From the NCBI GenBank assembly GCA_964016885.1, contig OZ024746.1, positions 29,264,001-29,328,000 of the forward strand: a DNA stretch of 64,000 nucleotides, given 5' to 3'. The translations under genes and the position numbers were made by a program. Source of the DNA: Eledone cirrhosa (lineage: Eukaryota). This document shows positions 8,331 through 10,398 of this stretch, piece by piece (position 1 is the first letter of the stretch; every line of letters begins with the position of its first letter). A model generated the notes under the pieces. That model saw only the letters and a list, made by a program, of their open reading frames with translations, did no database searches and had not been told where the DNA came from.

Positions 8331-10398
8331 AGTGTTTTGGTATCAATTTCTTTTTTTTTAAGTGTCAGAATCCTTACAATAGTCATGTGACTTAGCAGGT
8401 GAGATTTTTTCAGAATATTATTCCTAAGCACTGAAGCCTGCTTTATATTTGTTAATTAATAATAACTCCTTGTTTATTCTTTGTTGTTTGTTAATGATAT
8501 ATTCAAATTCATAAATTAGACAAATTCTGAACATTTTTTTCTGAATAGCCATTCATTAGGATCTTTCTTGTATTTATATCTCGGATTTGTTGTTGATGGC
8601 CAGTGATCTGTGTTCGTAGACTATTGCCATTATTCCAATGTAATATCCTCCATATCGGCTGTATGTTATAACATAGACGAGATTACCAGATAAACAAGTA
8701 AAACTGTTTTTAACTCTAAACATTATAAAACACGTAATCACATAAAACCGTTGTAAGCTGCAACTATTTGATGATAAATGGTAAATGATTTAATTTATAT
8801 TACTATAAAAATATTATTGTAAACTGCATAATATTAGATATGATGTTTGTGTGCATTTTCATATTTTATATATATATATATATATATATATAAAAAATGA
8901 AATATCAATATATCATCATTATGTTTATTCACGTGTGACGTGATCGATACTAATTGTACAGTGAGCTGGTCAATAGCAAAACGCATGATACGCGTTCAAG
9001 AACATGAGATAGCTATGAAATACCTAACGAACAAAAAAAGACAGCGAACTCTTTAAAACTCCTAAAGATTTCTAAAGAGTTCGCTGTCTCCTAAAGAGTA
9101 ACCATAAATATCTATTAGGTTATATATTTCAGAAGTTATCACTCACATGATCAGTAGTTACCCAAAGATGTCATTAAGGTAGACCCCCCCCCCCCAACTA
9201 CTACATGATGTTGTTAAAACAATATACAATGACATCTGTTGAAAAGAATGGCTTGGAATTAATAGAGAAGACCTGCGTTATGGGATATATACATGTGCGT
9301 TGGATCTCCGTCGGTTTGCGACGACGAGTGTTTCACTTGGTTCTATCAGTGGGAGAGCCTACTCGTAAAATCAACGTGTACCATTAAAGTAATTCTAGGG
9401 GAGATTCAGCAGGACAAAGTGAGTGACGAGGCTGACCATTTCAATTCCAGGTAGAGTCCATCTAGCCTGCTTCCAAACAATTGCTATCAACCTAGTTTAA
9501 CTGACAAGGCATAGCTCTTGTTTACACGTTATATTAATGTTTATTGTGATTACATCAATAAAATCAACGTGTTTCTTAATATTAGTTTATCTCCGAACAC
9601 AATTGAACTAACCTTCCCCGAGGCTTATAGTAAAAGGCATTTGCCAAAGATGTCATGCAGTGGCATCGAATCTGGGAGTTTTTATCTACCCACAGTAGCG
9701 ACTGTCTCGGGATAAATATATATTATAGAATCCCTGTTCTTGAATATATATATATATATATATATATATATATATATATATATATATATATATATATATA
9801 TATATATATATATATATATATATATATATATATATATATATATATATATATATATATATATATATATATATATATATATAGGAACGAGTAGGACCCCGAC
9901 GGCTGAGCTCAAGCCGTTTCGACGGCTAATTCTGGACTAAAATCAACATTTTAGTCAGAATTAGCCGTCGAAACGGCATGAGCTCAGCCGTCGGGGCCCT
10001 ACTCGTTCCTATTACCCACTCTACTACCCTAAGTATTGAGTACTTTGGTGCGTTATGGTCCACCTGGTTCCTTACCACATTTCCTTCGTTATATATATAT
10101 ATATATATGTAGATAAATCTACCAAATATATATATATAATGATAATAATAATTGTGTCTACTTTTGGCACAAGGCCAGCATTACCCAGTTCATTACTGGT
10201 ACTTTATTTTATCGACCCGGTAAGGATGAAAGGCAAAGTTAACCTCGACGGGATTTGAACTCAGACCGTAAAGGGACGTAATAATAAGCATCAACGATGT
10301 GCCAAATTTTCATGACGTTTATTCAAGTGTGACGCGCGTTTCGCGATTGATCAGCTCAAGGTTCGATCTCTATCGATCGGGCCCGACTAATAATGGAT

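What the first reader, a model, noticed from the sequence alone, without database searches (positions are those of the whole stretch)
9880..10091. Family whose every copy folds back inside putative stem II and lacks CUGANGA
Seen: copies at 4345-4520, 5522-5682 (-), 9880-10091 and the diverged 28723-28880 all carry the hammerhead 3' half GAAA-cggct tgagctc agccg-TC-gggg (GUC triplet with a palindromic gagctc loop in three; GUU in the diverged copy). Upstream, each turns into its own reverse complement, at a different point just 5' of GAAA. The diverged copy keeps the stem III pairing. Inference: cDNA snaps back on the stem II hairpin and self-primes second-strand synthesis, producing a ribozyme-dead palindromic insert. 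The four distinct junctions suggest four independent events.
Basis: partly seen in the sequence, partly recalled or inferred. Interest (0 to 1): 0.75.

Follow-up and report, generated by a model that had tools for sequence, protein, structure and literature searches.

The report
Twin-primed Penelope stumps recording ribozyme cuts
The four hairpins are real but are head-to-head stumps of an abundant, protein-coding Penelope-type jumping gene, likely made by copying one RNA from both ends of a DNA cut rather than by fold-back, and their stop points likely mark the RNA's start and, more rarely, a cut by its variant hammerhead ribozyme.

Summary
The four copies are real. They are 5'-truncated, head-to-head insertions into (TA)n of a Penelope-like retrotransposon (26,047 exact arm matches genome-wide). 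The parent is a 3.59-kb unit with a 739-aa RT/GIY-YIG ORF, Hydra-clade-like. Inverted pLTR plus one-sided tail is published PLE architecture.

Long copies carry the missing 5' half, but as UUGANAA (U3-A8) or CUGAGAA, not CUGANGA (0 of 100).

Simple snap-back on stem II is not supported. Of 80 pairs, 78 join one tailed and one tail-less arm; the tail-less arm is longer in 31 of 77; 5 pairs share no sequence. Arm ends pile up 11-22 nt 5' of GAAA, mostly in loop II, often with a non-native, cap-like G. A second pile sits exactly at the predicted cut (23 of 50 very short junctions).

Best reading (inferred, 0.7): two reverse transcriptions from two fixed internal start sites run to the RNA's 5' end, either the capped start or the ribozyme cut, and are end-joined. 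Earlier notes of this scan reached this reading on other DNA of this genome; my literature searches did not find it in print.

The parts
9881..9944 (-). Tail-less arm of the focal copy: runs from the pLTR end (+43) back to -22, plus one non-native base at 9944 (a G on the element's sense strand, cap-like)
   Evidence: family coordinates from reference L060
9945..9946 (.). Two untemplated junction bases
9947..10009 (+). Tailed arm, pLTR part (-23 to +43): loop II end, stem II 3' strand, GAAA 9970-9973, stem III with GAGCTC loop, GUC 9990-9992 (predicted cut after 9992), stem I 3' strand
10010..10089 (+). 80-nt tail, equal to the sequence that follows the pLTR in full elements (start of the 5' UTR)
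   Evidence: L061, L101, L102 continue from it into the ORF
9745..9880 (.). (TA)n target, left flank (right flank 10090-10108)
4345..4516 (+). Copy 2: tail-less arm 4345-4396 (-, to -12), tailed arm 4395-4516 (from -2), 2-nt overlap; tail-less arm is the longer one
5524..5681 (-). Copy 3: tailed arm 5640-5524 (starts at +3), tail-less arm 5635-5681 (to -7), 6-nt overlap; CTTAC subfamily
28723..28878 (+). Copy 4, older subfamily (long relatives mostly UUGAUAA core): tail-less arm 28723-28771 (-), tailed arm from about 28769, tail cut short

Best explanation
These are very short head-to-head insertions of an endonuclease-bearing Penelope-like retrotransposon, likely made when both ends of a cut in (TA)n prime reverse transcription on the element's RNA at two fixed internal sites and the two cDNAs are joined. 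SHOWN: parent element with pLTR, tail and an RT/GIY-YIG ORF; two fixed outer ends (+43, +120), almost always one of each per insertion; independent inner ends; a hard wall of ends at about -22..-18; a second sharp pile of ends at +23. INFERRED: (1) the protein cuts both strands of (TA)n and each 3' end primes, one at +43 and one at +120, probably on the same RNA molecule; (2) both cDNAs run to the RNA's 5' end, usually a capped start from an internal promoter at -22/-18, which lies downstream of the core and so explains why stumps lack it; sometimes a ribozyme-cut end at +23; sometimes a longer read-through RNA; (3) the cDNA ends are trimmed, tailed and end-joined. The stumps are predicted inert as ribozymes; the full pLTR likely holds a working U3-A8 hammerhead. 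Odds by step: PLE identity 0.97, two priming events 0.75, wall = capped start 0.6, +23 pile = ribozyme cut 0.7.
For: Parent: L101 has a 608-nt direct repeat 3,591 nt apart; L102 has a 739-aa ORF. AlphaFold pLDDT 90.3; top Foldseek hits are RTs including telomerase (E 3.5e-8 to 6.3e-8). Outer ends: 87 of 218 arms end at +43 and 91 at +120; 105 of 124 scored ends run into TATATA. Pairing: 78 of 80 pairs are tailed + tail-less, 2 tail-less only, 0 double-tailed (the script scored 77, and I add L162 whose tail ends at +84; binomial p 5e-21). Tail-less arm longer in 31, tailed longer in 22, equal in 24 of 77; 5 of 80 pairs do not overlap. Among 13 long pairs, the tail-less arm is longer by 250-950 nt in 4, the tailed arm in 7 (an eighth, L065, on a split alignment) and both end at the same base in 2. 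Wall: 124 of 218 arms end at -22..-11, 1 at -26, none at -27..-57, 22 long; 2,234 junctions have both arms reaching -18. Cap-like G: at -19 G is native in 0 of 100 and 1 of 89 long arms, but is 45 of the first 100 of 7,042 non-T arms; 26 of 40 G arms examined are not explained by the opposite arm, against 6 of 8 A arms. Cut site: 578 very short junctions; in the first 50, both arms start exactly at +23 in 23 (18 with extra letters between, 5 blunt), and none has both arms at +22, +21 or +20 with extra letters (by hand). Ribozyme: 90% of cells paired, two stem II pairs change on both sides between subfamilies, N7 varies. In vitro precedent: a PLE protein cleaves and extends both strands and starts at two internal sites that delimit the tail (PMC11167929).
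Against: No RNA evidence for the start site or the cut. The hammerhead is not the predicted minimum-energy fold (z -0.6 to -1.6). The commonest core in the main family is a C3-A8 mismatch (62 of 100), expected to be weak. The expected enrichment of cut-ended junctions in U3-A8 subfamilies was not significant (19:3 against 30:12, p 0.23; against 5:5, p 0.07). Perfectly palindromic junctions, including C|G joins, could also come from a fold-back with untemplated bases. Later asymmetric deletion in a palindrome could lengthen one arm. Some -22 calls are inflated by microhomology with the opposite arm. 14 of 40 G bases can be read as the opposite arm. In the anole PLE, HHR mutants did not affect insertion and no RNA reads ended at the cut (PMC11167929). 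The sample comes from the first 43 Mb of one contig and was picked by exact patterns.
Confidence: 0.7

Rival explanations
1. Snap-back: the tail-primed cDNA folds on itself, copies itself, and jumps to (TA)n at the pLTR end.
For: Arms agree in sequence: by hand, about 20 neighbouring opposite-strand matches agree at core position 3, one pair sharing a rare A. Both arms carry G in 4 of 6 G-bearing junctions. 27 of 80 junctions overlap by 1 nt or more, and the tailed arm is longer in 22 of 77.
Against: Tail-less arm longer in 31 of 77, by up to 950 nt in long pairs; 5 of 80 pairs share no sequence; 44 of 80 have extra letters. Stem II's 5' strand is not in the stumps. One shared RNA template explains the agreement equally well.
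Confidence: 0.1
2. Self-priming on an antisense transcript, the published proposal for PLE head-to-head palindromes (PMC3846280).
For: Published for Adineta elements with palindromic junctions; it would give head-to-head arms.
Against: Same geometry problems as snap-back. It does not predict a sense-strand extra G at a fixed base, or ends at the sense-strand ribozyme cut.
Confidence: 0.06
3. Two priming events on two separate RNA molecules, with the wall caused by RT slippage or fall-off in the A/U-rich loop II rather than by a transcription start.
For: Poly-A/T letters at several junctions and a run of U at -21..-19. The related protein is predicted to be a dimer (PMC11167929).
Against: A free choice of start site would give 1:2:1 pair types, not 2:78:0. 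Long arms tend to pair with long arms. Fall-off does not explain the G excess or the empty -27..-57 interval.
Confidence: 0.12
4. A non-autonomous DNA element (TIR MITE) or a stump that itself transposes as a fixed unit.
For: Short, TA-flanked, inverted repeats; a few junctions recur (10 of 50 are the same).
Against: The inverted repeat is not terminal on the tail side, junctions vary, and the parent encodes RT + GIY-YIG. Recurrent junctions sit on microhomologies or on the wall.
Confidence: 0.02

Closest known systems
EN+ Penelope-like element insertion unit: inverted 5'-truncated pLTR with a one-sided tail (PMC3846280, passages; PMC8557442, passages; PMC2377424, part 1 of 4 and passages)
   Same: Head-to-head truncated pLTR, tail on one end, partial tandems, AT-rich targets, internal promoter within the pLTR.
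   Different: Tail is 80 nt rather than 30-40; most insertions are 110-210-nt stumps; the published explanation is self-priming, which the junctions here do not fit.
Hydra clade PLEs, including Hydra-1_Obim and Penelope-13_HM (PMC8557442 section 11; supplement parts 1-2 and alignment passages)
   Same: C-terminal GIY-YIG, DKT, CxCX5C linker, CxxC and CxH around E/N, (TA)n target; visibly alignable by eye along the RT; Penelope-13_HM has an inverted 5' copy.
   Different: RWR for RWK, 3.59-kb unit, non-canonical core with a long stem II and 5-6-bp stem III. The hammerhead sequence differs from Hydra-1_Obim's, so this is a different family. No tree was made.
Poseidon from Anolis (PAc), in vitro (PMC11167929, parts 1-2 of 4)
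   Same: Two internal RT start sites delimit the tail; both strands are cut and extended; AT-rich target.
   Different: Different clade; the parts read do not explain the inverted arm, and found no RNA ends at the HHR cut, whereas DNA ends pile there in this family.
U3-A8 hammerhead variant of Schistosoma Cercyon PLEs (PMC4209133, parts 1-2 of 4)
   Same: U3-A8 instead of C3-G8 in a pLTR; paired HHRs on opposite strands 100-700 bp apart.
   Different: Here stem III is a full hairpin, and a C3-A8 mismatch form is the commonest in the main family.
LINE-1 twin priming and cap-derived extra G (PMC11702581, passages)
   Same: Second target end primes on the RNA; extra G at 5' junctions reflects the cap; end-joining closes the insert.
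   Different: L1 arms cover adjacent, non-overlapping RNA; here both primers use fixed sites 77 nt apart and usually copy the same stretch. It works like L1 twin priming but is not an L1.

Membership tests
EN+ Penelope-like element | Single ORF with telomerase-like RT and C-terminal GIY-YIG | tested here: met
   739-aa ORF in L102 with FDIE, Y[HR]DD and a degenerate VIY..YIG; fold hits are RTs and telomerases. Pfam blank for it; 1 of 6 homologues has GIY-YIG at E 0.0057, below cut-off. The EN domain was not fold-searched alone.
EN+ Penelope-like element | pLTR from partial tandems | tested here: met
   L101 direct repeat 2019-2626 / 5610-6205; similar in most of L102-L120.
EN+ Penelope-like element | Optional one-sided tail equal to the sequence after the pLTR | tested here: met
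   80 nt.
EN+ Penelope-like element | Adjacent inverted 5'-truncated copy | tested here: met
   80 pairs; long examples.
EN+ Penelope-like element | Hammerhead motif in the pLTR | tested here: met
   Type I fold with variant core. Rfam listed no hammerhead among the 150 of 165 window matches shown.
EN+ Penelope-like element | Target-site duplication | not testable with these tools
   Both flanks are (TA)n.
Hydra clade | DKT, CxCX5C linker, CxxC and CxH flanking E and N | tested here: met
   DKT at 116, CNLC at 669, CKH after N688 in L102. CxCX5C present in L062, L103, L110, L111 but mutated in L102.
Hydra clade | RWK motif | tested here: inconclusive
   RWR here; 71 RWK and 25 RWR among 98 aligned proteins.
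Hydra clade | (TA)n insertion | tested here: met
   105 of 124 ends.
Hydra clade | Canonical CUGANGA hammerhead | tested here: not met
   0 of 100; 2 of 100 in the older-subfamily search. Filed therefore as Hydra-like, not as a proven member.
Hydra clade | Placement in the RT tree; absence of CCHH | not tested
   Reference proteins were seen only in the paper's supplement and compared by eye.
Active hammerhead ribozyme | 3-8 Watson-Crick pair, GAAA, UH, three stems | tested here: inconclusive
   U3-A8 in 31 of 100 and 85 of 100; C3-A8 mismatch in 62 of 100. Cleavage not assayed.
TIR MITE | Constant terminal inverted repeats and constant interior | tested here: not met
   Variable junctions, one-sided tail, RT parent.
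Non-LTR retrozyme | Tandem units each with a full HHR, no ORF | tested here: not met
   Stumps are head-to-head with no core; parent has an ORF (definition from bioRxiv 10.64898/2026.07.22.740005, part 1 of 5).

The most novel reading that the evidence does not exclude
Over ten thousand stumps form a germ-line run-off map of one PLE RNA. One RNA is primed twice at fixed sites by the two ends of a single cut, which would explain the inverted pLTR and one-sided tail of all EN+ PLEs without self-priming. The two piles of ends mark a capped internal start and in vivo cleavage by a non-canonical U3-A8 hammerhead, while a core-mismatched (C3-A8) lineage amplified anyway.
Probability: 0.45. Interest if true: 0.72.

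Novelty: new member of a known kind. Interest (0 to 1): 0.52.

Why it matters
The architecture is known, but two questions are open in print: how PLEs make inverted pLTRs with a one-sided tail (PMC8557442 calls for an in vitro system; PMC3846280 proposes self-priming) and whether their hammerheads cut in vivo (PMC11167929 found no RNA ends at the cut). This family gives base-level predictions for both: primers at +43 and +120, capped start at -22/-18, cut at +23. It also shows that CUGANGA-based searches miss a very abundant ribozyme-bearing family, and that such stumps will be mistaken for MITEs or miRNA hairpins.

Tried and rejected
Rfam on the window gave only sub-threshold hairpin matches. 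The repeat finder was swamped by (TA)n. Arm discordance at one site in L001-L030 looked like evidence against snap-back; dropped, because ranked hits by likeness to the window's own variant. A tail-only DNA search returned nothing (the tool skips very common words). Pfam and PDB sequence searches were blank. No RNA holder listed. Contigs of two runs of unknown kind show a depth step over -22..+120 and loose TA ends at +43 and +120, but contigs cannot show RNA starts and depth is no copy number, so this is not used as support. A link between subfamily and cut-ended junctions was not significant. A link between subfamily and the G at -19 (21:8) does not differ from the 30:12 background. Relative ages of core variants are unresolved: within-group distances are noisy and the samples biased. 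Single-sequence folding does not give the hammerhead. The covariation control is mixed: cells paired and score beat 500 of 500 shuffles, pair-count measures do not (413 and 476 of 500). Literature searches; none listed a paper stating twin priming, a cap signature or cut-site ends for PLEs. Subscription journals are mostly outside the library, and supplements other than that of PMC8557442 were not read.

Full report
Observation. The four copies are present as described. Each reads (TA)n, inverted arm, junction, direct arm, unique tail, (TA)n. Coordinates below count from the G of GAAA in natural copy L060: predicted cut at +23, pLTR end +43, tail end +120, core at -63. The genome is 3.0 Gb in 1,796 contigs; an octopus-like host is my untested inference. 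A 24-mer around GAAA has 26,047 exact matches and its reversed control 0. That is roughly 13,000 insertions or more, since most have two arms and diverged copies are missed.

Parent element. Two of the first 30 loci run on upstream without turning. That upstream DNA found long copies, and L061 showed the tail continuing into an ORF. L101 has a 608-nt direct repeat 3,591 nt apart, and L102 has an open 739-aa ORF. Pfam and PDB sequence searches were blank; 952 homologues were found among 7,995 scored candidates. The model has pLDDT 90.3, and its best matches are RTs including telomerase. Motifs fit the Hydra clade as defined in PMC8557442 section 11, and the protein aligns by eye with Hydra proteins in that supplement. 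The canonical-core criterion fails and no tree was made, so I file it as an EN+ PLE, Hydra-like. The layout (inverted truncated pLTR, one-sided tail, (TA)n) is published (PMC8557442, PMC3846280, PMC2377424).

Ribozyme. Hand counts of the first 100 of 1,305 matches: 62 CTGAGAA, 31 TTGAGAA, 7 other, 0 CTGANGA. In the first 100 of 163 matches aimed at the subfamily of copy 28723: 85 U3-A8 (77 TTGATAA), 8 U3-G8, 2 C3-G8, 5 C3-A8 (the pattern fixed Y at 3 and R at 8). U3-A8 is a known PLE variant (PMC4209133). On 36 distinct rows, 90% of cells pair and two stem II pairs change on both sides between subfamilies; controls are mixed, and minimum-energy folds do not give the hammerhead. C3 and G8 single mutants kill the anole PLE ribozyme (PMC11167929), so C3-A8 is likely weak (inference).

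Junctions. From 120 position-ordered loci I kept 218 distinct arms after removing duplicates. 87 end at +43 and 91 at +120. Of 80 pairs, 78 join one tailed and one tail-less arm, 2 are tail-less only, none is double-tailed. The tail-less arm is longer in 31 of 77, the tailed in 22, equal in 24. 44 of 80 have extra letters, 27 overlap, 9 are blunt, and 5 pairs share no sequence (58 arms stayed unpaired, many of them long or cut by locus edges). Long pairs behave the same, with the tail-less arm up to about 950 nt longer. A cDNA folding on itself cannot write sequence it has not copied, so simple snap-back fails for these. Caveats: later deletion could lengthen one arm, and perfect palindromic joints are compatible with either model. 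Arms agree in subfamily letters and tend to be both long or both short, which suggests one RNA for both.

The wall. 124 of 218 arms end at -22..-11, one at -26, none at -27..-57, and 22 are long. Genome-wide, 3,696 arms reach -25 with exact native sequence, and 2,234 junctions have both arms at -18 or just beyond. G at -19 is native in 0 of 100 and 1 of 89 long arms, yet it is 45 of the first 100 of 7,042 arms with a non-T there (47 C, partly a native variant; 8 A). I examined 40 of those 45 G arms and all 8 A arms: 26 G and 6 A are not explained by the opposite arm (p 5e-4). Non-native G also occurs before -22 in 5 of 23 short arms, including the focal copy. An extra G marks capped 5' ends in L1 insertions (PMC11702581). 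The A bases at -22 and -18 lie in an initiator-like context (TCAKTY, recalled, not from a call), and Drosophila Penelope has an internal promoter in its pLTR (PMC2377424). I infer a capped start just downstream of the core, which explains why stumps lack it. There is no RNA evidence.

The cut. Of the first 50 of 578 very short junctions, both arms begin exactly at +23 in 23 (18 with extra letters, 5 blunt), 5 are at +23 with +24/+25, 6 pair +23 with +20, 10 join in the stem III palindrome, and 6 are other (by hand). An RT stall at the foot of stem III would end one base earlier. This is best read as templates whose 5' end is the ribozyme product. The expected bias to U3-A8 subfamilies (12 of 12 long CTTAC copies are U3-A8; 45 of 58 CCTAC are C3-A8) was not significant.

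Mechanism. PMC11167929 showed in vitro that a PLE protein cuts and extends both strands and starts at two internal sites bounding the tail. Combined with the junctions: both ends of a (TA)n cut prime at +43 and +120, run to the RNA's 5' end, and are end-joined. Identity is shown; priming, start site and cleavage are inferred (overall 0.7).

Papers seen: PMC11167929 parts 1-2 of 4; PMC4209133 parts 1-2 of 4; PMC8557442 passages, section 11, supplement parts 1-2 and passages; PMC2377424 part 1 of 4 and passages; PMC3846280 passages; PMC11702581 passages; bioRxiv 10.64898/2026.07.22.740005 part 1 of 5; all others as search listings only. Searches listed no paper with this mechanism for PLEs. Earlier unreviewed notes of this scan report the same reading on other DNA of this and other genomes; a search by this sequence found none. 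I had formed the twin-priming and start-site reading before and ran the cut-site test before seeing; the notes are not counted as support.

Verdict. The junction statistics make two open questions on PLE biology directly testable. Interest 0.52.

Noticed in passing
window 3941-4139: Unrelated palindrome with an intact canonical hammerhead on each strand (cores at 4081 + and 3999 -) and a one-sided extension on the left; same layout, another family.
   Followed up: partly
window 12389-12738 and 49726-49912: Another family of TA-flanked palindromes with canonical-core hammerheads (12631 +, 12496 -, 49813 +) and a shared tail; a related core at 7162.
   Followed up: partly
window 4735-5101, 38515-38651, 43793-44277, 13039-13156, 57910-57974, 63828-63889: Further long palindromes, several TA-flanked with a one-sided extension; likely other PLE stumps, untested.
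   Followed up: no
window 21700 and 48083 (+): Isolated type I hammerhead-like motifs outside the listed palindromes.
   Followed up: no
window 36161-37656 and 39398-39818: Decayed pieces of related PLE ORFs by tblastn with the L102 protein (E 2e-7 to 1e-4).
   Followed up: no
window 36358-36952, 20746-21524, 30045-30656: Minisatellite arrays of 16, 39 and 36 nt; the 16-nt array lies between two of the PLE ORF pieces.
   Followed up: no
L308 and L309: Both long arms end at the same internal base (-201/-201 and -147/-147), as expected if both copied one broken RNA; in L308 both arms share a rare A at core position 3.
   Followed up: partly
L011, L026, L029, L138/L159, L200, L225, L228: New stumps often sit in the (TA)n next to older stumps of this or other families, building clusters.
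   Followed up: no
L062:4941-6485: A 515-aa open frame with non-LTR (RTE-like, by eye) RT motifs beside the PLE copy.
   Followed up: no
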